From Octopus vulgaris (Eukaryota), in NCBI GenBank assembly GCA_951406725.2, contig OX597820.1:112778001-112842000 (forward strand): a DNA stretch of 64,000 bases. Direction: 5' to 3'. Below, piece after piece: positions 6,931-61,290 of the stretch. How positions within the stretch are numbered: position 1 is the stretch's first letter; each line of letters starts with the position of its first letter. Below the pieces are notes generated by a model. It did not search any database, was not told where the DNA came from, and saw nothing but the letters and a program-made list of their open reading frames with translations. The position numbers were made by a program, and so were the translations under genes.

Positions 6931-9259
6931 TACCGCTGCTGCTGCTGATGATGATGATGGCGATCATCATCATGAAGATGGTGATAATGATGAGGATGAT
7001 GGCAATAAGTAACTACAATCAACAATTTTCGTGCAAACCAATGTTAATTTACCAAAGATGTTGGCAACAGACAATATTTTGTTTTGTTTCGTTTTTTCCA
7101 GAGCTCTAGACTAGATATGTTAGGTTTTTGTCTGGTTTGGTCTGGTCTGCATAATTTGTCATCATAGTTAATTCTATGGCTGGAAGAGATGTTTAAGAAT
7201 AGCGTAGTGACAAACTTTTTTTTTAATGCAGCCATGTGGCTGTTCTTAAGGAACTAGGATCACAACCTGGTTTTGTACAGCAAGATTTGACAAGCAACTG
7301 TGATTATTTGTACAATGGCATTCCAAATCATGACTATATACCATTTGTGGATGAATTGAGATTTGTCTCTGAGTAGATGTTGAAGAAAATAGATAGCAGC
7401 AGAGATAGTTTGGGAACTGACGCTAATTGGGAAACGAAGTCTTTGAGAAGTTTAAATTTTAACTGTTTCAAATTTAAATTTCATTTGTTTCAAATATATT
7501 TGAAAATATGAAAAATTTAGGAAAACAACTTTTTCCTTACAAACAGCTGGTGTTTGGAACACAGATCAGCATAAAAATTCTGATAGAAAGTTTTAATTCA
7601 ACTCACTTTAAAACAATGAACCTTATGAAGGAGATGATAAAGGACCAAAATATGTAGTGCATTGCTGCACTCGAGAAGACCCAGCCATCACAACAGAATT
7701 GAGCTCCTAAAACCACGATTCCACATAAAAAGCACTCAGTACCCTCTGTAAAGTGGTTGGCATGCAGAAACCATGCCCAAAACAGACTATGGAATTTAGT
7801 GCAACCCCTGGCCTTTCCAGTTCCTGTTCAGCCATTCAGTACATGTTCGCATGGAAGACAGACAGTAAATGTTGATGAGGATGATGATGATTTTGTGCAG
7901 TAGACCCAATGGTGGTCTCAAGTGGGTTACTATCAAAAGGGTCAGAGAATACAGTATCCCATCACACCTTAGAGGTTAAACAATGGAGGCATTATTAGCA
8001 TTTAGTTATTTTGTCCAGAGATATATGGAGTAATTTCTTATAAGTAGAAATTAATACAGGTGAAAATTAAAACTAATGGCATTTATGGTTTAATCTGTAG
8101 AGATTTTCTTTTTCCTCTTCCTAAATCCATTTTAATACAATCCGAAAAAAAAAAGTTAAAGAAAAATGTAACAATGAAATCATCATGCTTGTTTTGACTC
8201 TGATTTTTTCAGGTTTGTTTGAATCAGATGCAATTCATTGTGGTAGATTAGATTTTCTATGGAAAGATGCCCTTGCTGTTGCTAACATTCACCTGTTTCT
8301 AAGCAAGGTGATATTTCCTCATGGCCAAACCGGTTTCACAGAATATGGAAATTGAATAACACTGCTTGTATAACAGTGAGACTCGTTTACAAAAACTTTG
8401 CAATGTCAAAACAGGGATACACACACACAAACACACACACACACACACACACACTGATGGGCTTTTTTTCAGTTTCTTTCTACTAAATCTACTCAAAAGG
8501 CTTTGGTTGACCCTGACCTATTGTAAGACACTTACCCAGGATGCCACTCAGCAGGATTAAATTTGAAAATTTGAAACTATGTGGCTGAAACTTCTTAACT
8601 ACACAATCATGTCTGCACCCTGTCTAAAATAGCTGAAAACAGCTTACATCTTAAACACACACAGACACACACACACACTTCACCGTCATCTAGCTGATAT
8701 CAAGAAGAGGTCAACAAACCTCTTCAGATATTCAGGTAAATATTGAACAGCTGCATAATTACTTAATCAGTGCATAGTAATACAAAAAAAAAGAAGAAAA
8801 ACTAAAAGCACAGTTAAAATTGTTAAAGTACATTAATCTCATTCTATTTAACATATGTCATTCTGTTCTTACAGGACACACATATAAAATAACACTTCTT
8901 AGACTTGGTGCTAGCCACCAAAATAAGAAGACAAAAGTGTAAAAATTAAGTAGGTGTGACATCTCATTCGCCACAGAAAGTTCCCTTCATTGTCTAAATA
9001 TCTTACACCATCATCATCATTTCTCTAATATCTGAAATTCTCAGAGAACACTCAGTGTCAGCTGATCAAGCTAATCAAGAATGCCACCGTTCTAGGATTA
9101 AATGTTAATATCATAATCTCAAGCTGTGCTGAAAAACTGTTATAATGTAATGCCATTTGAATTTCATGGATTATTTATGGTGGACCATTTAGTGCACTGT
9201 AGTATCACCAAGAAGATAGTTAACATCTCTTTGGGTATTTAATTTTTTCTTATATAAAA

Positions 9260-9613
9260 TCAGAATCAAAATCGTTCAAAAATCAATGGAAATTGTAGTT
9301 GTGATACCAGTGCCAGTGGCACGTAAAAGAACCATCTGAACATGACTGTTGCCAGCACCGCCCCGACTGGCCTCCATGCTGGTGGCATATAAAAAGCACC
9401 AACCAATCATGGCTGTTACCAGCTTCGCCTGGCACGTAAAAAGCACCCACCACTCTCATGGAGTGGTTGGCTTTAGGAAGGGCAACCAGCTGTAGAAACA
9501 CTGCCAGAATAGACTGGGCCTGGTGCAGCCTCCTAGCTTCCCAGATCCCAGTCGAACCGTCCAACCCATGCTAGCATGGAAAGCAGACGTTAAACAATGA
9601 TGATGATGATGAT
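9260..9613 (+). mobile_element. RTE-LINE 3'UTR fragment (family A)
   Basis: Ends cccatgctagcatggaaagcagacgttaaac(GAT)n. Confidence 0.85.
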
Positions 9614-9689
9614 GAACCATTATGTCTGCTTCTGTTTTAGGCATGTTTCAAAGTACTACATATATATATATATTCAAAATACTCTATCT

Positions 9690-9927
9690 TTTTTTTTACC
9701 CTTTTCCTTGTTTCATTCATTAGACTGTGGCCGTGTTAGGGCACCCCATTGAGGAATTTTAGTAGGATTAATTGAACCCAGTACCTATTTTCTTTAATAA
9801 GCTTGGTACTTATTCTATTGGTCTCTTTTGCTGAACAACTAAGTTATGAGGATGTAAACACACAGTGGTGGGGGACAAACAAAAACACACACAGATACAT
9901 ACATACATACATACATACATACATACA

Positions 9928-9959
<32 letters not shown>

Positions 9960-10085
9960 CAACAGGTACCTTTCAGTTTCTGTCTACCGAATCCACTCAC
10001 AAAGCTTTGGTTGGCTTAAAGCTATAGTAGAAGACACTTGCCCAAGGTGTCACACAGTTGGACTGAACCTAGAACCATGTGGTTG
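9690..10085 (-). mobile_element. tRNA-derived CORE-type SINE (family C)
   Basis: Homologous to the full-length copies at 53205 and 54105. Confidence 0.8.
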
Positions 10086-10769
10086 ACAAATATATATATT
10101 TAAATTATTCTAGCCCATTAAAAAATTATATCTACCTCTCTATTAATCAGTCTGTCTGTCTGTTTGTCTGACTGCATAAATACATACCCAACCTGATAAC
10201 TCAACCCTTCTATTTTCTTTCTTCCCCACAACCTCCATCCTGGATATTCCCACCCACTCTTTTATAATGTGAGTAACTATGCATCCCCTCTATAGTAAAA
10301 CACCTGTTCTGGCCTCTCCTTTTATACTTTAACCTTTCATTTCCAGGCATAAAGCCACCTCACCCCCCACTACTGCTAGCCCTGATTAGCTACAGGGTGA
10401 ACTCACTAGTTTTGGTGCAATTCGAAAGAAGAGAAAGCCCAAAAGCACGCAGTACACTGTGTAGTGTAGTTGGTGTTAGGAAGGGCATGTAGCCTTAGAA
10501 ACCACACCAGAGCAAGCAATGGAACATGTTGTGGTGCTCATACTGGTCAGATCCTTTCAAACTGTTTCAACCCAGGCCAGTATGGGAGAGGGACATTAAA
10601 AGATGATGATGATGATGATGAAAGATGATCATAGTATGCACACACACAGAGGCAATGAGCATCTACAAAACAGAACAGTTTGAGGATAGAAACCAGGTCT
10701 AAACACAATAGCTTATAGACATACTCTCAATGTAGTTCTATATAAATCTTTAATCATTTTTTTTTTATA

Positions 10770-11179
10770 CTTAAGACCATCAGAAATGTTAAGATATCAG
10801 CCTCTACCCACGTTGTCATGCTTTGATTAATAGGTTTATCTTAAATGGTTTATCTGGTATTTGTTGGGGGTAATCATCTAGGGATCATTTGAATGCCGTG
10901 AAGTCCCTTTCCCCCTTTATGTGTGTCTGGCACGATGTCGAAGAGAGCAGGGCCAATTGAGGTGAAATAGTTCTGTCATAGTGTTGTGATATGACAAACA
11001 TTTCTGTAGTGGACGGAAGGCACGGGAGCCAAGCCTCAGATGAATTTGAAAGATGGGCAATGTTGATGGAATATTTTCCACATCATACAGAAGTTACAGA
11101 GCTCACAGCAGCGGTGAAGGGAGCAAAGCCTGAGCTTTTTGAGTCGATCCCAATAGTCAAGGCTTGTCATGTCATCCTC
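10770..11179 (-). mobile_element. CR1-clade LINE ORF2 C-terminal fragment (decayed)
   Basis: Minus strand encodes LDYWDRLKKLRLCSLHR..., YFTSIGPALFDIVP and LDDYPQQIPDKP, typical of CR1 ORF2 ends. Confidence 0.75.
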
Positions 11180-11567: not shown

Positions 11568-13089
11568 ATTAAGTACAGACGTCAATGTAAATTGATTATT
11601 CACCAGAGGGCAGTCTCATCTTCCTGTATGGCCACAGCTCGATGACTGTGACCAATAAAAGAATAAAAGAAAATGTTTATGATGAGTTGTACACACCCAC
11701 ACACACTCCCCTTTCTCTCCCCCTTCTCTCTCTCACACACATACACACACACACAAAGAAGTCTGGTTCTATTTTTGTATCACTTTGATATATATTTTTA
11801 TTGAAATGATGTGAACTTGCAAATTCATCTCGTTGGGTGGATCCGACAGTGGAAGCTGCTTGCAATATAATAAACAGAGAAAGAAACGAGAAGTCGTGAC
11901 TATACCAGATACAAGATGGAGTGGAGGAGTGACTATACACAATGCTGATAAACAACTCATCCCAGCAACAACACACAACAGTGATGGTGGTGATGATGAT
12001 GATGAATGATAGCGATCATGACCATAGTGATGAGATGATGGAAATGATGGTAATGATAGAAATATATATGTTAATTATACATGATATTTATATACTATGT
12101 GTGTAGTGAGTGTATATGTGAGTGTAGTAAATGTAAGTTTTTACTGTGGATTACATGCAACTTATCTGTGTTCATTAACCTAAAAATTTAAATCCTTCAT
12201 TTATCTCCTCCCTTTTTTTTTTAGAATAAATGATGGTGACAATGATGATGATGATGGTGATGATGATGATGACAACAATGATAATGAGGACAATGATGAT
12301 GACAATGATGATGATGACAATGATGATAATGTTAATGATGCTGATGACAGCACTGGCGCCACCAATGATGACAGTGACGCTGATGATGATGATGAGAAAA
12401 ATGGTGATGCTACTGTCATCAACCCTGACTCTACAGCTGGCTGTCCATTTCATAACATATCCATCACCTCACTTCCTGATTCTTCAACGATATCTCAGAC
12501 TCAATTATTTTATCATCATAATCTAAAATATATTTTGAAACCTCTTCTTGTGTAGTTTAGACTTAACCACTTACCATTTTAGTCTGCCATTCAAATATAA
12601 AGATGGTTTACCCATTGCATTGTAAAAATTATTAACTCACTTCAAGCATCTTATTACAATTCCATATATATTTACAAGTATATTTACTAATTAAGTTGTC
12701 AGAGTCTGTTCTTATTGATCTGAGCAGATTGAGAGGAGCATAGCTCAGAAAAATGTCCCCAATGACAGAATATGAAGACCTAAAATCTCAATGGCTGAAA
12801 TGGCAGGAGATGCCAAAATCAGAAGCAATTTCTATGAAAACATAGCTCAAGCAATGTGAATGCTGATGACAGGCAGTTGCCATTTTATTGCCTGGCCCTG
12901 CATGTCATATTTTGCATATGCTGTAGAGGATGTTTTTGAGACCACACAGTCCATGGTGGGGGTAATTTCCTGACAAGTTGGGATCCACCCTAATCAAAAC
13001 CGCACACTATCAGCATTTCTTCATTGATCACTGAACGGCAACTATAGAGTGGTTGTTGTAAGGTGAACAATATGGGTTAAAGAACTTTT

Positions 13090-13370
13090 TTGGTCATGAA
13101 TGACTATGGGAAAGTTCCCCTCCGAGGCACAAGTCTGGCAAGGTTGTTTTATGGAAGACCAGCAGTCACCCATGCATACCAGCCTCCCATCTTCATGCCA
13201 CCGGTGTTATCCAAGGGAAAGGTAAAGGCCAATACTGAGCGATCTGGAGCAATGTGCGATAAAGTGTCTTGCTCAAGAAGACAACACACAGCCAGGCCTA
13301 GGAATCAAACTCACAACCTCATGATTGTGAGCCTGATGCTCTAACCATTGAGCCATGTGCCTTCACAACG
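13090..13370 (-). mobile_element. tRNA-derived SINE (family E), without a 5S head
   Basis: Reverse-complement homolog of 21436-21776. Confidence 0.8.
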
Positions 13371-14641
13371 TGAACAATATGATGCAGAGAACCAAATAAT
13401 TCTAGTAGAGTAGTTGCTTGATGATGAACATTCTTACACAAGTGGTTGTTGTAGGGTGAACATTCTTACATAGTGAACTGAACAGCTATGTTATAGAGAA
13501 CTAGTGAATTAAATACTTGATTCAAAGTGAACAGAACAATTGTTTTAGTGAACCAAACAGTTAAATATTCCACTGATAAGTTAATGTCAATTCATAAACT
13601 GACATTAAATTTTCTGCCTTCTAATTTGATTTTCATATTCTACTTCTCCATAAATTTGCTGTGTGACATTGTAACTGCATCACGGTCAATCCATTGCCAC
13701 CACCAACACCACACCGACATTATTATCACTATAACTGCTACTTGTACCACAGTAATAGTAACAACAACAACAGCAGCAGCATCACCACCACTACCACCAC
13801 CACCACCCCTACCACCATTGCCACTGTTATTACAACAGTTCATTTCTCATATGTCTAAGAAGATTAGAAGTGATTAGGGCTAGCATATTTGGCTGACTTC
13901 TAAAGCTATTGCCTCACATTTAATTCTCCTTGCCTGCCTCTTCTCATTATCAAACCAATTTACTGATATCTATACTCTTACATACAACTGGTAAAAACTT
14001 CATCTGAAACCAACCAGTGTCAAACCTAAGAAGCTGAAAGCCATCTTGAATAAGCCTGCTCTCTCTTTCTCTCTCTCTCTCTCACACACACACACACTAT
14101 ATATATATATATACATACATATGACAATAGTGGATCCTGCAAACATAATAAATACACAGGTAATTAAAGAAATAGAAATGAATATCTATATATATGTATA
14201 TGTGTATATATATGTATATGTATATGTGTATATATGTGTGTATATATGTATATATATGTATATGTATATGTATGTATATATATATATATGTATATGTATA
14301 TTCTTTTTTTTTTTTTTTTTTTTTCTCGATTAGATTTATTATTATTATTACTAATATTGTTGTTATACATACATACAAGCATATGTAATGATAATAATGG
14401 GTGGATGTAAACACATGAATAAAATTAGAACAAAAGCAACAACAACAAAAACAAAATACAAATTACAAGAATGTATATAACCAGAAGATACAAATATTAC
14501 AGGCATCCCCCCACACACACACACTAGATAAACATAGACGCACATAGAGATATAAGCATGTGCAAATGAAGACATACAATAGAAATACAAAATGGCTGAC
14601 GGTTAGTAAGGAGAGACACAAGTAAGTGAGAAGAAAACAAA

Positions 14642-20157: not shown

Positions 20158-21304
20158 ATCTCCCTTAAATTATACCTGGCAATCTTAAAGAAAACTGAAG
20201 TATACACAATGAGATCTTGGGACATGTCTGAAGTGGAAAAAGAAACAACATGGTGTGGTCATGGTTGGAGCATTATAGTGTTGTCCCGGAGCTAAACAAT
20301 AGCTGCAGTAGTTAACATATATTTTCTATCTTAATGTAGATTCAACACTGCATTTGTCCTTATATTTTAATCTTTCAAGTCCGAAACCACTTCTGAATTA
20401 ATTTTTTCCTTTTACCATTTATTCCAACATAGATATTTGCCAACACCAATTCCTATTCTACTCAGGGTACATCATCCACCCACAATATATACACATTAGT
20501 AGAGTCATCTTTCCTGTATATATTTATATACCCTTTTGATACTCTGTTGCTTTCTTCACTTGCACTTAATTCCTCAATATTTTCCACAAAGAATATGTTC
20601 TCAAATAAAAAACCATATTCTTTGTGGAAAATAGCGATTTGACGTCTATATCTAGCATGTTGACCGTCCACTTTTAATTGTCAGTCCTTTAAATTTTGTA
20701 TATATATACACACACACACAAATATATATATATATATAATTTGCATCTGTTTGCTGCTTATGCTGACAAAAATATGCAATATGGTAGCTTTCCAAACATC
20801 TAATCCAGTGTCACCTCAAGTTTTTAAGTCCAAGGTTTGTACATCTAGTCTGGTGCATTGCTAATCAGAGATACCCCTTAATGTTGATTTCACCAGAACC
20901 TGCAAGGGCCATGACCACAGCCCTTCCTCCATACCAACCCAGTGATATCATCCACATCACTGTGAACCTTTTCTTTGTAAAAGTATAGTAAACACACACA
21001 CTGGCTTCTGTCCACCAAATCCACTCCCAAGGTCTGGGTTTGGCCTAGGGCTGTTGTAGAAATCATTATGGGAAGTGAACTACTCAACTACACAACCATA
21101 AATGCCAATATTAATATGGGATGTGGAGTGAGCCAGTATCTAGATGACAATTGTATTTACAGAATTTTTCTCCGTTTCAACTCCAGAAGCTCATCTCCTT
21201 ATTACATGCTGGTCTTATTAATCCTATTCAGTTTAATCTAGAAACAGTATTTTGGTTTCTATACTCTATCCTTTTTCTTCAAATGTAAGTTATGCACATA
21301 TCAT

Positions 21305-21422
21305 TTATATACCGTATCACGTTGAAAGCACCGGTTCTCGTCTGATCACCGAAGTTAAGCAACGTCGAGCCTAGTCAGTACTTAGATGGGTGACCGCATG
21401 GGAAACCTAGGTGCAGTAAGCA
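21305..21422 (+). pseudogene. 5S rRNA-derived sequence forming the head of a composite SINE
   Basis: atcacgttgaaagcaccggttctcgtctgatcaccgaagttaagcaacgtcgagcctagtcagtacttagatgggtgaccgcatgggaaacctaggtgcagtaagc is near full-length 5S with A/IE/C boxes; no oligo-T terminator follows. Confidence 0.92.
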
Positions 21423-21776
21423 TAGCACATTGTTGAAGGCGCATGGCTCAGTGGTTAGAGCGTCGAGCTTACGATCGTGAGGTTGTGAGCTCGAATCCCG
21501 GTCCGGGCTGCGTGTTGTGTTCTTGAGCAAAGCACTTTATTTCACGTTGCTCCAGTTCACTCAGCTGTAGAAATGAGTTGCGACGTCACAGGTGCCAAGC
21601 TGTATCAACCTTTGTCTTTCCCTTGGATAACACTGGTGGCATGGAGAGGGGAGGCTGGTATGCATGGGCGACTGCTGGTCTTCCATAAACAACCTTGCCC
21701 GGACTTGTGTCTAGGAGGGTAACTTTCTAGGTGCAATCCCATGGTCATTCATGACCGAAGGGGGTCTTTACCCTTA
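21305..21776 (+). mobile_element. Composite 5S rRNA + tRNA-derived SINE (family E)
   Basis: 5S is followed by a tRNA head (tggctcagtgg A box, gctcgaatccc B box). The whole unit is flanked by the 10-bp direct repeat cacatatcat (21295-21304 and 21777-21786). Confidence 0.85.
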
Positions 21777-21896
21777 CACATATCATATTGCATCAATTAC
21801 ACAATGGTAATTACTAACTATGTGCATGATTTCATGCCTTTCTTCTACGAATAAGAACAGAGATAATGATAGTTGGTGATGATGATGATGATGATA

Positions 21897-21930
<34 letters not shown>

Positions 21931-22829
21931 CGACGACGATGATGATGACAACGACAACGATGACAACATCAACGTTGTTGATGACGGTAACTACAATGAT
22001 ACTTTGCTGTTGTTTGCACATAAAAATTTAAGTTTTTCGCTTTAGTTATCAATGAGGATGAGTATGTTAGTGGTGGTTTTGGAGGTGCAAGCAGTGTCTG
22101 TTGGTGTCGGTGGCGGTAGGGATAGTAGTGGTGGTGGTGGTGGTGGTGGTAGAGGATAAACTGAACTAATTATGTGAAGTTAGGAACCCTGGAAGTGTAC
22201 AAGGGAATCAATCCACTTTAAAATGAACAATTCCACAATATTTTTTATCAGTTTAAAGTTTTATTGAAGAAGGATCAACTTGAAAGAGAACCAATTTCCT
22301 GAAGTTAATTGTTAATTTTGTGAACAAACAAGTAAAGCTAAAATGAAATTTAGCAAATCTGTAGGGACATCACATTAATTAAAAGTGCATATTTCATCAT
22401 TAACTTAAAAGTGGCACTGTTATTAGCAGCAGCTTTCAGGCCACATTCTGTGCTAATTAAATAATCAGAACAAATTTATTATCATTACATTCACTGTCAG
22501 TTCTTATTTTGGTTGGGTGGTGATAAGATTTCAGGGTGAATTGTGTTATGTATTTTAATTTGGTTATGGTGATGACCTCCAGTAAATAGGTGTGAGAAGC
22601 AAGCAGGGCCCTAGTGAATGGGTCAACATTCAACATGTTCCTGTTAGCAAAGGAATGCAGGTGGGAGAGAATACATGATGTTTGGCAGTAAAAGTAATCG
22701 TGGATTTGTGGAATGTCCTGATTGTCCCCAGCTCTATGTATCCTCCACACCACCCTATAAGGATGTTTCATTTTATTTCCTTTAACATCGTTGCTCTTCA
22801 TACCTGTACTTTTTTTTACTTAATTCTAT

Positions 22830-25608: not shown

Positions 25609-25983
25609 GTGGAGGCACAATGGCCCAGTGATTAGGGCAGCGAACTCGCAGTCGGAGGATTGCGGTTTTGATTCCCAGACCGGGCGTTGTGTGTGTTTAT
25701 TGAGCGAAAACACCTAAAGCTCCATGAGGCTCTGGCAGGGGGTGGTGGTGACCCCTGTTGTACTCTTTTGCACCACTCTTTCTTCCTGTTTCTTGTCCCC
25801 GACTTCCTACGCAACCACTAAGCCTGGATGCGCATTCATCCATCCGTCAATGCTCTCGGTGTCAAGGGTTGACCTGCTTTCTTTTCTGCGGGTCTTACGA
25901 ATAGCAAAGGACCATGTTTCGGACTTCTCCCAGAGGATGAAGACCGCTTCGTTCAACAAACAAACAAACAAACAAAACAAACC
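25609..25983 (+). mobile_element. Family D SINE
   Basis: gtggaggcacaatggccc head and (CAAA)n tail. Confidence 0.9.
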
Positions 25984-34025: not shown

Positions 34026-34343
34026 TATATATATCAGGATTGAAGTGAATCAGGCACTTAAATGGTGAATATTGTGGTTCATGTATTCCAGTAATGAAAA
34101 TGTTTTTTTCTAACGATGTAATATTTCCATTAATCAATTAAAAGTTCATTGGACATAGCTGTAGTGAATCGACATTACCTGTACAGGTGCAGCTGGGTGC
34201 CACATGTCAGATGTTGAAATGACCGAAGAGCAACATGAAATGAAGTGCTTTGCTGAAGAGCACAATGCAGCGCCTGATCTGGGAATTGAACTCATGATCT
34301 TGCAGTCGTGAGTGCAGCACCCTAACCACTAAGCCATGTTTCC

Positions 34344-34378
<35 letters not shown>

Positions 34379-34703
34379 GCATGCACACATATATATATAT
34401 ATATACATGTGTCTCTGTGTATATATAATTATGTGTGCGTGTGTAACTACTTGCACTGCACAAGTGTAAATGTTTCTCTCTGTGTCTGTGTGTGTATATG
34501 TTGTCCTATATATGTGTGTGTGTGTCTCTATCAGTATTTGAAAACGAGATCAAAGTCCTCATGAAGAAGACAGCATCCATCCATCCATGCTGGCAAACGA
34601 CAACATAAGAACAGCAGCAATTGAAAGGCAATGACAAGAGTATTGAAAATTTCAATGCAGCTGGAAAAACATACAGAGTGCAGCAGCAGCAGCAGCAGCA
34701 GCA

Positions 34704-35100
34704 GTGGAGGTGCAATGACCCAGTGGTTAGGACAGCGGACTCGTGGTCGGAGGATCGCAGTTTCGATTTCCAGACCGGGCGTTGTGTGTGTTTATTGAGC
34801 GAAAGCACCTAAAGCTCCACGAGGCTCTGGCAGGGGGGGTGGGGTGGCGACCCCTGTTGTACTCTTTCGCTCCAACTTTCTCTCACTCTTTCTTCCTGTT
34901 TCTTGTCCCCGACTTCCTACACAACCGCTGAGCCTGGATGCGCATTCATCCATCCGTCGATGCTCTCGGTGTCGGGAGTTGACCTGCTTTCTCTTCTGCG
35001 GGCCTTACGAATAGCAAAGGACCACATTTCGGACTTCTCCCACTGGGACGAAGACCACTTCGCTCAACAAACAAACAAACAAACAAAGCAGCAGCAGCAA
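34704..35100 (+). mobile_element. Family D SINE inserted in (CAG)n
   Basis: tRNA head; (CAG)n on both sides. Confidence 0.9.
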
Positions 35101-48681: not shown

Positions 48682-49653
48682 AATTCTTTTTTCTGACGAG
48701 ACTAAAATCAACTTGTTTGGATCAGATGATATTAAACGAATATGGCGATGACCAGGTGAAGATAATAGCGCCAAATGTACTGTGCCTACCACGAAACACA
48801 GTGGCAGAAGTGTCATGCTTTGAAGATGCATGAGTACGGCTGGTGTGGGAGGACTCACCTTTATTGAGAGAACAATGGACTCAAGGCTTTATTGTGACAT
48901 CCTGCAGAAAGCAATGTTGGAAAGCATCAAAGGACAAGGAAGACATTCCATGATCCAACACAATAACGACCCTAAACACACTTCGAAGACGACAACTAAG
49001 TTTTTATCAGATAAAAAGTTAAAGGTATTGCCTTGGTCTACCATGTCACCTGATTTAAACCCAACTGAACATCTGTGGAGTGTTTTGAAAAGGAAGGTTG
49101 AGGAGAAAAAAACCCGCAATGTAACACAGTTGAAAGACATCATTCAGGATGTCAATGGAAGTTGATTTTATCAGTTATATGCTGAAATTTAGTCAACTCT
49201 ATGCCCAGAAGACTTAATGCAGTCATTGAAGACAAGGGCAGTCACACCTAATATTGAATATAGCAAATAATCCATTAGGGTGGACATATTTTTATATCAT
49301 TTGAAAATAAATATTTTGTTCATAGCTTTGAAAATGTCTATTGTTTTGTGTTCCAAATTTGTATAATGTTTGCATGTATAATATATCTTAGTATAAATTT
49401 TGTTTGATTTCCTTCGATAGTATCAGAGTAAGGGCAATTTTATTGAAATTCTTTAGGGGTTCACATATTTTTGTGAGATACTGTATATATATGAATTAAT
49501 ATAAACAGCTAGGTGCAATGTGATAGCATAAAGGAAAAATTCAATTGTCATTAAGTGTGACTAAGGATGCTGAAGCACCTACATTGCTAGAAATAAGAGT
49601 TAAAATACTCTTAAATCTGCACGAGGAGTGCAAATATATACACATATACTGAC

Positions 49654-54847: not shown

Positions 54848-56207
54848 CATTTGTAGCAGCAACTTTAATGCAATTGCAATCTGGTAAGTATGTCGCAGAG
54901 GAGACTTTTCTTTCCTCCATGGATTTGCAGCAACAACAACAATAACACCATCAACACCATCAGCATCAAGCACTTGAACATGCTAATACTATGCAGTGAA
55001 TTTAGTGCACATACATGTTGCAGACTAAGATTTCAGAAGCATTTAACACATATTTATCATAACAACAAAGTACACTCACAGACATGCACACACACCACCA
55101 CCACCACCGCCTCCACCACCGCCAACACCAACACCACTCCACACCATGTCACACACCACACAAACGTACAAACATACACAAAGTTGAATTTATGATTTAT
55201 GCCTATATTTGGTTGCATAAATGTTGAAAATTTGTCCATTTCTCTCTACCGAATCCTGTCACAAGGCTGTTATTGGCCTGAACTATAGTAGAAGACATTT
55301 ACCAAACGTACTATGCAGTAGGTATCACATGGTTTGAATATGAGGGCATATAGTTTGGAAAGCAAGTTTCTCGACTACATGGCTACTCCTGCCTCTATGA
55401 ATATGTACGGATATGTATGGTATATACACATATAAACACGTACACACACACACCACCCCTCATCCTCATCTTCATTATCTAAAGTTAGTTTTCCATGCTG
55501 GCATGGGTTGGACAGTTTGACAGGAGCTGGCCAGCCAGAGAGCTACCATGTCTGTTTGGCATGGGTTCTATAGTTGGATGTCCTTCCTAACACCAACCAG
55601 TTTACAGAGTGTGTTGGGTGCTTTCTATGTGGTGCAGGCATTAGTGCTTTTTACTTGACACTAGCATGAGAGCATTTTATATGGTGCCAGCATGAGTAAT
55701 TTTACATGGTAGCTGCATGAATGCTTACTATGTGGCACTAGCATGGGCGCTCTTTACATGGTGCCAGTGTACATTCACACTCACCATATACAATCAAACA
55801 TTACAGAATTATTCTTAAAAGTAAGTGCATGCAACATATCCATAAATATAGAGAAAAAACATGCAAAGACTCATTCACACATATATGCAAACATGCCCAG
55901 CAATTCTGAGGGAGGGGGTAAGTCAATTACATCGACCCTAGTGATCAAATGATACTTATTTTATGAACCTTGCAAAAGATAAAAGGCAAAGTTGACCTTG
56001 ATGAAATTTGAACTCAGAACATCAGGATAAAAGGAATATTGTCACTAAGCATTTTGCTCAGTGTGTTAACAATTCTGCCAGTTCCCTGCCTAATATATAT
56101 AAGCATATCACTAACATATATGTTCAGTGATATACATAAATATTATTTCTGTGTCCTGGTGGCTGATGATGCATGGACATGCACTGAGGCTGTGACATCT
56201 CCAGCAA

Positions 56208-56590
56208 GTGAAGGCGCAATGGTCCAGTTGTTAGGGCCTCGGACTCGCAGTCGGGGCATCGCGGTTTCAATTCCCAGACCGGGCTTTGTGCGTGTTTATT
56301 GAGTGAAAACACCTAAAGCTCCACCAGGCTCCAGCAGAGGTTAGTGGCGACCCCTGTTGTACTCTTTCGCCCCAACTTTCTCTCACTCTTTCTTCCTGCT
56401 TCTTGTCCCCGACTTCCTACGCAACCGCTGAGCCTGGATGCGGATTCATCCATCTGTTGATGCTCTCAGCGTTGGGGGTTGACCTGCTTTCTCTTCTGCG
56501 GGTCTAATGACTAGCAAAAGGACCACATTTCGGACTTCCCCCATCTTGCGAGCTCTGGGACGAAGACCGCTTCGCTCAACAGCAACAGCA
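56208..56590 (+). mobile_element. Family D SINE with 13-bp TSD
   Basis: acatctcc(a/g)gcaa at 56195-56207 and 56591-56603. Confidence 0.9.
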
Positions 56591-56603
56591 ACATCTCCGG
56601 CAA

Positions 56604-57464: not shown

Positions 57465-57715
57465 TGTATGGCTTAGTAGTTTAGGTGTTGGACTTATGAT
57501 CGTAAGACTGTGGTTTTGATTCATGGCTGGGGCGACACATTGTGTTCTTGAGCAAAGCACTTCGTTTCATGTTGCTCCAGTTCACTCAGCTGGCAAAAAT
57601 GAGTGATCCTATAGGCAGACCAGTGTCCCATCCAGGTGGGGAATTTATATGCCATGCAACAGGGAAACCAGCTTTTATGAGTTAGTATGACTTGAGAAAG
57701 TAACTTTACCTTTAA
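57465..57715 (+). mobile_element. Diverged family E-related tRNA SINE
   Basis: tgtgttcttgagcaaagcactt..tttca.gttgctccagttcactcagctg is shared with 21515-21565. Confidence 0.75.
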
Positions 57716-60746: not shown

Positions 60747-60802
<56 letters not shown>

Positions 60803-61290
60803 CGAGTGAGAGAGCAGTGTATGCCATCAAAGTGATACTGGGGTACAAATATATGAAGCCCAATATACTTATCATGACTACCCGTCTAATAAGTGTACAC
60901 AGGTACATGCATAACAACCATATGTGCATGACATGATCATCTCATATCAGGATAAACAACACATGATTCTGGCAGGTGGGGCCCAGTTAGAATTTTCTTT
61001 GGGTCAAGTAGCCCATCCTGCTCAAATGGTCCTTGAATAAAGTTTGTTTAAGGATGATGAATGAAACACACATGTTTCCAGAGGTGAATTATTCAAACTC
61101 CAAAGAATCCCTCTCAATATATGGCTATGATGCTCCCCGAATACTTCTGCTCTTGATCAGAGATGCGCATATTGTCAGCCACCAAGAGACATACTCAACT
61201 GGTTAAGGTTAAGTAACTGACAAGCAAGTCTGTGGTATTGAGCAGAATATTAACTGTAACCCATCTTTTATACTGAGACAAAACATTATT
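60747..61290 (-). mobile_element. Family F repeat, second copy
   Basis: Homologous to 24088-24640. Confidence 0.8.

What the first reader, a model, noticed from the sequence alone, without database searches (positions are those of the whole stretch)
21295..21786. 5S rRNA-tRNA composite SINE inserted as one unit
Seen: near full-length 5S, a linker of about 14 nt, then a complete tRNA-headed SINE, all bounded by one 10-bp direct repeat. The same tRNA SINE occurs without 5S at 13090-13370 and 57465. Established: 5S-derived SINEs and 5S-tRNA composites are rare compared with tRNA SINEs. Inference: either a dimeric SINE subfamily with both type 1 and type 2 Pol III promoters, or a one-off template-switch chimera.
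Basis: partly seen in the sequence, partly recalled or inferred. Interest (0 to 1): 0.7.

Follow-up and report, generated by a model that had tools for sequence, protein, structure and literature searches.

The report
Two-headed 5S–tRNA short mobile element
A whole copy of the small 5S ribosomal RNA is joined in front of a complete tRNA-type short jumping element in what is probably an octopus genome; the same join occurs in several copies in three related species, so it looks like a small family of two-promoter mobile elements rather than a one-time accident.

Summary
Observation confirmed. A near-complete 5S rRNA copy (21305-21421, Rfam 90.2 bits), a ~12-nt linker and a full-length tRNA-head/CORE SINE (21434-21774) lie inside one direct repeat (10 bp exact, probably 12 bp with one change). 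In organism E one contig appears to join both flanks exactly in register with the repeat: an empty site, so the whole 482 bp arrived as one unit. Yet E, C and B all hold other contigs that align across 5S, linker and SINE head, with recurrent variant letters and almost no length changes, at 19-210 times single-copy depth (upper bounds; 0.06-0.22% of free SINE-head depth). So the junction pre-dates this insertion and is multi-copy. Best reading (0.72): a low-copy dimeric 5S-tRNA-CORE SINE subfamily, transcribed from the 5S promoter, reading through (no T4 terminator) and mobilised by the SINE's 3' end. I could not tell whether the other copies are dispersed or tandem; transcription and the partner LINE are inferred. 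5S-headed SINEs are known; keeping both complete promoters is the unusual part. An O. vulgaris repeat library lists four uncharacterised 'SINE/5S' families that may include it.

The parts
21293..21304 (+). Left target-site duplication (exact 10-mer 21295-21304; 12 bp with one mismatch at 21294)
   Evidence: piece ends of the empty-site contig in run X13 fit the 12-bp register
21305..21421 (+). 5S rRNA-derived monomer, near full length, 5' strand of helix I altered; internal type 1 promoter region matches the Rfam consensus (box positions recalled: A ~21353-21367, IE ~21369-21374, C ~21377-21394)
   Evidence: Rfam RF00001 90.2 bits; differs from the bulk of 5S contigs at 21343, 21364, 21376, 21398, 21415 among the rows shown
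21422..21433 (+). Linker without a T-run; same length in junction-spanning contigs of three organisms, with recurrent variant letters at 21422, 21424, 21425
   Evidence: tables 3 and 4
21434..21513 (+). tRNA-like SINE head; box A 21444-21454, box B-like 21489-21498
   Evidence: family 5' end at 21434 (loose ends); recalled box patterns matched; D- and T-arm-like hairpins, z -2.6; no ARAGORN or Rfam tRNA hit
21514..21578 (+). CORE-like central domain
   Evidence: by-eye comparison with the CORE-SINE Lipo printed in the supplement of PMC5804259: about 51 of 65 columns; 59 of 65 with the sister copy at 57468
21579..21719 (+). Family-specific body of unknown origin
   Evidence: 101 of 112 with the 13075-13372 copy, absent from sister families
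21720..21774 (+). 3' end with a stem-loop and short repeat-like tail; presumed LINE-recognition region
   Evidence: family 3' end at 21775; hairpin predicted but not significant, z -1.4; LINE origin inferred, no partner found in the window
21775..21786 (+). Right target-site duplication (exact 10-mer 21777-21786)
13075..13372 (-). Free monomer of the same SINE family, no 5S, own 12-bp direct repeat (comparison copy)

Best explanation
The element is one retroposed copy of a low-copy dimeric SINE subfamily: a complete 5S rRNA monomer fused once, through a fixed ~12-nt linker, to the 5' end of an abundant tRNA-head/CORE SINE. Shown: anatomy, one duplication, multi-copy junction in three organisms. 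Read from table values rather than seen as a sequence: the empty site in organism E, which dates this copy after the split from E while the junction is older. Inferred: RNA polymerase III starts at the 5S +1 under the type 1 (A-IE-C) promoter, reads through because no T4 run occurs in the 470 nt, and the SINE 3' end recruits a partner LINE (probably RTE clade, recalled resemblance only) for target-primed reverse transcription. The internal A/B boxes would start just ahead of the tRNA head and give the ordinary monomer, which together with the weak activity of retroposed 5S promoters would keep the dimer rare. The first fusion arose by template switching or RNA ligation, or by a SINE landing just behind a terminator-less 5S copy; the data do not separate these.
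For: Single TSD, no inner TSD. X13 (organism E): identical depth 48.3 on both flanks, one record over the ends, left piece ends 21292, right piece starts 21775, offset 482 = TSD offset. X2 (organism B): two flank records, the right one starting at 21754 inside the SINE tail, so the site is filled at least at its 3' end. Linker depth 920 (X13), 632-648 (X7), 7349-10832 (X2) = 19x, 111-114x, 143-210x single copy. Variant letters 21422G in 1/8/13 contigs, 21424C in 8/13/15, 21425T in 7/6/6 (X13/X7/X2); best pieces span at least 21389-21459, 21390-21454 and 21399-21449. Only one indel row in the linker (1 contig, X13) and table 4 was not cut. Depth of letters other than the listed majority ones at 5S positions 21376 and 21415 (21/319/250x and 13/135/381x) follows the junction depth, a hint of family-diagnostic letters. 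First T4+ run is at 22033. Precedent for 5S heads gained by SINEs: PMC4824008, PMC3272025.
Against: No second full copy with its own TSD was seen as sequence; no genome was available. Summed contig depth is not copy number and overcounts, so the 100-copy SINE threshold is not shown, and E may have under 20. The spanning pieces prove only ~35 nt of 5S, not full-length 5S heads. The 5' letters 21305-21307 are hardly covered by other contigs (excess about 125 depth-letters in X2), so this copy's 5' start is private. At 21376 the residual in X13 (0.35%) is no higher than background at 21398. Only 40 of 96 variant rows and 15 of 587 joints were shown; the empty-site joint itself was not among them. 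The raw-read run X22 laid 5 of 12.9 million reads where about 19,000-69,000 were expected and gave no direct copy count. No RNA run was laid. The RTE insertion signature is only half met at this site.
Confidence: 0.72

Rival explanations
1. The junction is multi-copy because it was amplified as DNA (a minor 5S rDNA repeat type or segmental duplication with a SINE right behind the 5S gene), and the window's copy is a rare retroposed read-through transcript of such a unit, not a member of a self-propagating dispersed family.
For: Several variant classes have 4-7 copy-equivalents per contig in X7 and X2, as homogenised repeats would give; no second dispersed copy was seen.
Against: Other classes sit at 1.2-1.9 copy-equivalents per contig, as dispersed copies would; several variants coexist in each organism; the window's copy has a TSD and an apparent empty site.
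Confidence: 0.17
2. One-off chimeric retrocopy: the reverse transcriptase switched from SINE RNA to cellular 5S rRNA (or the two RNAs were ligated) during this single insertion, as in U6/L1 and 5S/L1 chimeras.
For: One TSD around both parts; private 5' start; such chimeras are well documented (PMC13174262).
Against: Junction-spanning contigs at 19-210x single-copy depth with several letter variants, present also in organism E where this site appears empty.
Confidence: 0.04
3. Recurrent independent chimeras: the partner reverse transcriptase often jumps from the SINE 5' end to the 5S 3' end, giving many look-alike junctions that never replicate as a unit.
For: This SINE family also forms other multi-copy 5' fusions (joints 21573>21434, 21473>21434, 21775>21434); 5S RNA is abundant.
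Against: Fixed linker length and dominant shared letters (C at 21424 in 78%, 55%, 36% of depth) point to one origin; the linker is neither 5S nor the usual SINE start. Caveat: junctions with other linkers would be clipped and unseen.
Confidence: 0.05
4. Two independent insertions at the same spot, with a coincidental direct repeat.
For: A 6-nt match between the left repeat and the linker could be a relic of a second duplication.
Against: The 6-mer is out of register and at chance level; 0 of 1094 control zones share a 10-mer; the empty allele lacks both parts; the linker recurs at other loci.
Confidence: 0.02

Closest known systems
5S-headed Deu-SINEs (AmnSINE1, SINE3 relatives; Nishihara et al. 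2006, seen only as cited in PMC4824008 and PMC4758252 passages)
   Same: 5S sequence fused to the 5' end of a tRNA-derived head, attributed to template switching.
   Different: [quoted passage not shown]
HaSE3 of Helicoverpa armigera (PMC3272025 and PMC5786205, passages)
   Same: 5S-headed, low-copy sister of an abundant tRNA SINE, sharing its 3' part; RTE partner.
   Different: HaSE3 has the 5S head instead of the tRNA head and central domain; here it is added in front of them.
Ante, scaphopod SINE (PMC5804259, section 5 and supplement)
   Same: Molluscan 5S-derived head followed by a CORE domain; its 5S stretch closely resembles the window's by eye.
   Different: Ante's 5S part stops about at box C and has no tRNA head; it adds a V domain.
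Octopus CORE-SINEs OR1/OR2 (Ohshima and Okada 1994; named in PMC4824008, PMC4758252, PMC5804259 passages)
   Same: Probably the family or a relative of the right-hand monomer: tRNA head plus CORE in an octopus (lead only).
MEG-TR (fruit bats), 5S-Sauria (Anolis), Ped-1 (springhare), CoeSINE5 (listed in PMC10946416 and PMC5786205; structures of the first three recalled)
   Same: 5S-derived SINEs, some combined with tRNA-SINE parts or RTE tails.
   Different: Vertebrate and independent; in MEG-TR the order is recalled as tRNA first. Not compared at sequence level.
'SINE/5S' class in the O. vulgaris repeat library (PMC13282606, supplementary table 1)
   Same: Four consensus families, 9.83 Mb, classed as 5S SINE in an octopus; this element may be among them.
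   Different: No structure is described in the parts read; the seven 'recent' insertions average about 6 kb, unlike a 0.47-kb SINE. The Zenodo library could not be seen.

Membership tests
SINE family (SINEBase definition, PMC3531059) | Short (<1 kb) | tested here: met
   470 nt between the duplications
SINE family (SINEBase definition, PMC3531059) | Interspersed, not tandem | tested here: inconclusive
   This copy is dispersed with TSD and apparent empty site; flanks of the other junction copies were not shown
SINE family (SINEBase definition, PMC3531059) | [quoted passage not shown] | tested here: inconclusive
   19x, 111-114x, 143-210x single-copy depth, upper bounds; raw reads unusable
SINE family (SINEBase definition, PMC3531059) | [quoted passage not shown] | tested here: inconclusive
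   Shared linker; residual depth at 21376 and 21415 tracks junction depth in X7 and X2, background-level at 21376 in X13
SINE3 (5S rRNA-headed SINE) | 5' head derived from 5S rRNA with the A-IE-C promoter region | tested here: met
   Rfam RF00001 1-120, 90.2 bits; box positions recalled
SINE3 (5S rRNA-headed SINE) | Transcribed by Pol III from the 5S promoter | not testable with these tools
   Inferred from the 5' start and lack of a T4 run; no raw RNA reads were offered
SINE3 (5S rRNA-headed SINE) | 3' end shared with a partner LINE | tested here: inconclusive
   No LINE 3' match in the window; no RT domain in 39 frames scanned; no genome held
Dimeric (complex) SINE | Two complete or almost complete small-RNA-derived units moving together | tested here: met
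   One TSD, no inner TSD, apparent empty site, multi-copy junction
tRNA-derived SINE head | At least 60% identity to a tRNA over 60 nt; boxes A and B | tested here: inconclusive
   Boxes match recalled patterns and arms fold, but ARAGORN and Rfam find no tRNA; no direct tRNA alignment was possible
CORE-SINE | ~65-bp CORE domain after the head | tested here: met
   About 51 of 65 columns by eye against Lipo as printed; not computed by a tool
OR1/OR2 octopus SINEs | Full-length match to the published consensus | not testable with these tools
   No OR1/OR2 sequence in the supplements searched
RTE-mobilised retroposon (signature of PMC6007223) | TSD starts with T about 10 nt downstream of a T stretch | tested here: inconclusive
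   12-bp TSD starts with T, but the T5 run lies 17-21 nt upstream; one site cannot test a statistical signature
One-off chimeric retrogene (U6/L1, 5S/L1 type) | Junction unique to the locus | tested here: not met
   Junction multi-copy in 3 of 3 contig runs

The most novel reading that the evidence does not exclude
A young, dispersed octopus SINE family that keeps a whole 5S gene and a whole tRNA head in tandem, both promoters working: the intermediate long postulated for the birth of 5S-headed SINEs, caught before either head decays, active across at least one speciation, and sitting beside its tens of thousands of monomeric sisters, so that promoter competition and head replacement can be measured directly. 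The same SINE seems to capture other 5' partners too, suggesting a reverse transcriptase or RNA end unusually prone to fusion.
Probability: 0.4. Interest if true: 0.68.

Novelty: new variant of a known kind. Interest (0 to 1): 0.5.

Why it matters
5S-derived SINEs are rare (2.3% of SINEBase per PMC10946416) and the known ones have lost most of one head, so how a 5S head is gained and why such families stay small has been argued from decayed end states. A family with both internal promoters intact, a known monomeric parent, presence/absence polymorphism between close species and different abundance between them would let this be tested with copy trees and promoter mutants. It also supplies insertion markers for the host group. 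It is not a new class of element and no host function is implied.

Tried and rejected
Raw-read run X22 laid only 5 reads and was set aside as uninformative (mislabel or filtering; cause unknown). X7 is low-depth (5.7) and lacks the right flank, so it says nothing on the orthologous site. Junction-pattern scans found 1 viral and 33 metagenome loci; 0 of 34 resemble the element beyond the pattern (best a 17-nt match): chance hits. Rfam miRNA hits across the window are microsatellite artefacts below gathering scores. Whole-element folding is unremarkable (z -1.18), and the 5S part alone does not fold better than shuffles (z -0.04). No partner LINE in the window (39 selected frames of 230 were scanned). 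Supplements gave no OR1/OR2 sequence (one file each not searchable in 28 and 42). Eight paper searches showed no description of a 5S-tRNA dimeric SINE in a cephalopod; the library lacks most subscription papers, Repbase and Dfam. Earlier scan notes: nothing by place or sequence. The 6-nt left-repeat/linker match was considered as a second TSD and rejected.

Full report
What is in the window. Rfam matches 5S rRNA over model positions 1-120 at 21303-21422 (90.2 bits, E 4.6e-18). The match is clean except for the 5' strand of helix I. An exact 10-bp direct repeat lies at 21295-21304 and 21777-21786 and extends to 12 bp with one mismatch. Of 3000 random zone pairs at the same distance, 75 share a 10-mer, but 0 of the 1094 that are not low-complexity. 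There is no inner duplication around either part. Behind the 5S copy come about 12 nt of linker and a 341-nt SINE with box A at 21444, a box B-like motif at 21489 (recalled patterns), a CORE-like domain (about 51 of 65 columns by eye against Lipo in the supplement of PMC5804259), a body and a 3' end. ARAGORN and Rfam do not call the head a tRNA. The copy at 13075-13372 is the same family in all four modules; those at 57468 and 34338 share only head and CORE; none of 7 other copies has 5S upstream. No run of four T lies in the element; the first is at 22033.

Host. A Tc1 transposase fragment at 48824-49162 has an Octopus vulgaris protein as best of 26 hits (75% identity; the next named hits are fish at 53-55%), and the 5S stretch resembles that of the scaphopod SINE Ante by eye. 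An octopus is likely; this is not proven.

One insertion. No genome is held, so I laid 4 of 24 offered runs on 21100-21865. The tool's 'from_end' value behaves as the distance to the end of the aligned piece: it equals the distance to the stretch start at 21137, and in the SINE it never exceeds the distance to 21434 or 21775. In X13 (organism E) both flanks have the same depth, 48.3, only one record runs over the ends, the left piece ends at 21292 and the right piece starts at 21775. That is the register of the 12-bp duplication, so one contig appears to skip exactly 21293-21774: an empty site. The joint row itself was not among the 15 of 587 shown, so this is read from table values. In X2 (organism B) the flanks are two records (51.5 and 48.2) and the right one begins at 21754, inside the SINE tail, so the site is filled at least there. 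Flank differences shown are 10 plus an 11-bp gap for E and 3 for B in about 284 nt (lower bounds; 40 of 96 rows shown). The insertion therefore came after the split from E's lineage.

A family, not an accident. Depth on the linker (21422-21425) is 920 in X13, 632-648 in X7 and 7349-10832 in X2: 19, 111-114 and 143-210 times single-copy depth, and 0.064%, 0.096% and 0.22% of the SINE-head depth. Summed contig depth overcounts, so these are upper bounds. Variant letters recur: G at 21422 in 1, 8 and 13 contigs, C at 21424 in 8, 13 and 15, T at 21425 in 7, 6 and 6. The best pieces carrying them span at least 21389-21459 (X13), 21390-21454 (X7) and 21399-21449 (X2), that is from inside the 5S into the SINE head. 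Only one contig shows a length change in the linker at the 5% listing level. Because E lacks this insertion, its junction contigs come from other loci, so the junction is older than this copy. Residual depth at 5S positions 21376 and 21415, where the window differs from most 5S contigs, follows junction depth in X7 and X2 and may mark family-diagnostic letters; in X13 the 21376 residual is at background. Against: no second copy was seen whole; the pieces prove only about 35 nt of 5S; this copy's first letters are private; and the raw-read run X22 laid 5 reads where about 19,000-69,000 were expected, so there is no direct count. Whether the other copies are dispersed or tandem is open.

How it most likely works. 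Inferred from established Pol III biology: only a start at the 5S +1, under the type 1 promoter, can give an RNA with both parts; the A/B boxes would start near 21434 and give the monomer. Without a terminator the transcript runs through the SINE, whose 3' end recruits a partner LINE; target-primed reverse transcription makes the duplication. An RTE-clade partner is a recalled resemblance: no LINE match was found in the window, and the RTE site signature of PMC6007223 (abstract and first part of Results) is half met. Low copy number fits the view, quoted in PMC3272025 and PMC8010984 (passages), that retroposed 5S promoters are weak without upstream signals. The founding fusion may be a template switch, RNA ligation (PMC13174262, PMC7245038 passages) or DNA-level juxtaposition. 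The same SINE shows other multi-copy 5' fusions (joints 21573>21434, 21473>21434, 21775>21434).

Comparison with what is known. 5S-headed SINEs are known from fish, reptiles, mammals and insects (table in PMC10946416) and from one mollusc, Ante (PMC5804259 section 5 and supplement). In Deu-SINEs 5S was fused to a tRNA head that then lost its 3' part (PMC4758252, PMC4824008 passages); in HaSE3 and Ante it replaces the tRNA head. Here both are complete. It works like a SINE3 and a dimeric SINE; membership as a SINE family under SINEBase's rules (PMC3531059 passages) is open on copy number and dispersal. Eight searches showed no such element described in a cephalopod, but PMC13282606 (parts 1-2 of 3 and its supplement) lists four undescribed 'SINE/5S' consensus families in O. 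vulgaris, and I could not see them, nor Repbase, Dfam or the SINEBase supplement. PMC10886601, PMC13023118 and PMC13295347 (passages) added only background. An earlier scan note describes a similar fusion in an arthropod, judged a one-off; I did not test it.

Verdict. Real, inserted as one unit, and most likely a member of a small dimeric 5S-tRNA-CORE SINE subfamily (0.72). New variant of a known kind; interest 0.5.

Noticed in passing
window:21434-21775 (joints): The SINE forms other multi-copy head-to-tail fusions: 21573>21434 (depth 980 in X2), 21473>21434 (501), 21599>21434 (153) and 21775>21434 (2-3 contigs in each of three runs). Possibly further dimeric subfamilies.
   Followed up: no
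window:21308-21421: 5S-like contigs sum to about 6,000-10,000 times single-copy depth, with at least two 5S types that differ between organisms (positions 21342, 21343, 21364, 21376), and depth falls five- to sixfold between 21398 and 21415. Could be many 3'-clipped 5S copies or another 5S-headed repeat.
   Followed up: no
window:57468-57604 (+) and 34228-34338 (-): Sister SINE families that share head and CORE but have different bodies; their continuations match the common loose ends at 21567 and 21552.
   Followed up: partly
window:6547-6953 (-), 25609-25979, 34681-35090, 56198-56593: A second tRNA-headed SINE family, about 390 nt, 81-89% identical between copies, with short-repeat tails.
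   Followed up: no
window:47920-49162: Tc1/mariner remnant: Pfam HTH_SB and DDE_3 hits; best protein hit from Octopus vulgaris, 75%.
   Followed up: partly
window:63623-63714: Perfect inverted repeat with 45-bp arms and a 2-nt loop, seen in an Rfam alignment; MITE-like or a foldback.
   Followed up: no
window:24086-24582 and 60789-61285: Unclassified 500-bp repeat pair, 85% identical.
   Followed up: no
run X22: A raw WGS run with the same species label as the best holder laid only 5 of 12.9 million reads on a very abundant repeat: likely mislabelled or heavily filtered.
   Followed up: no
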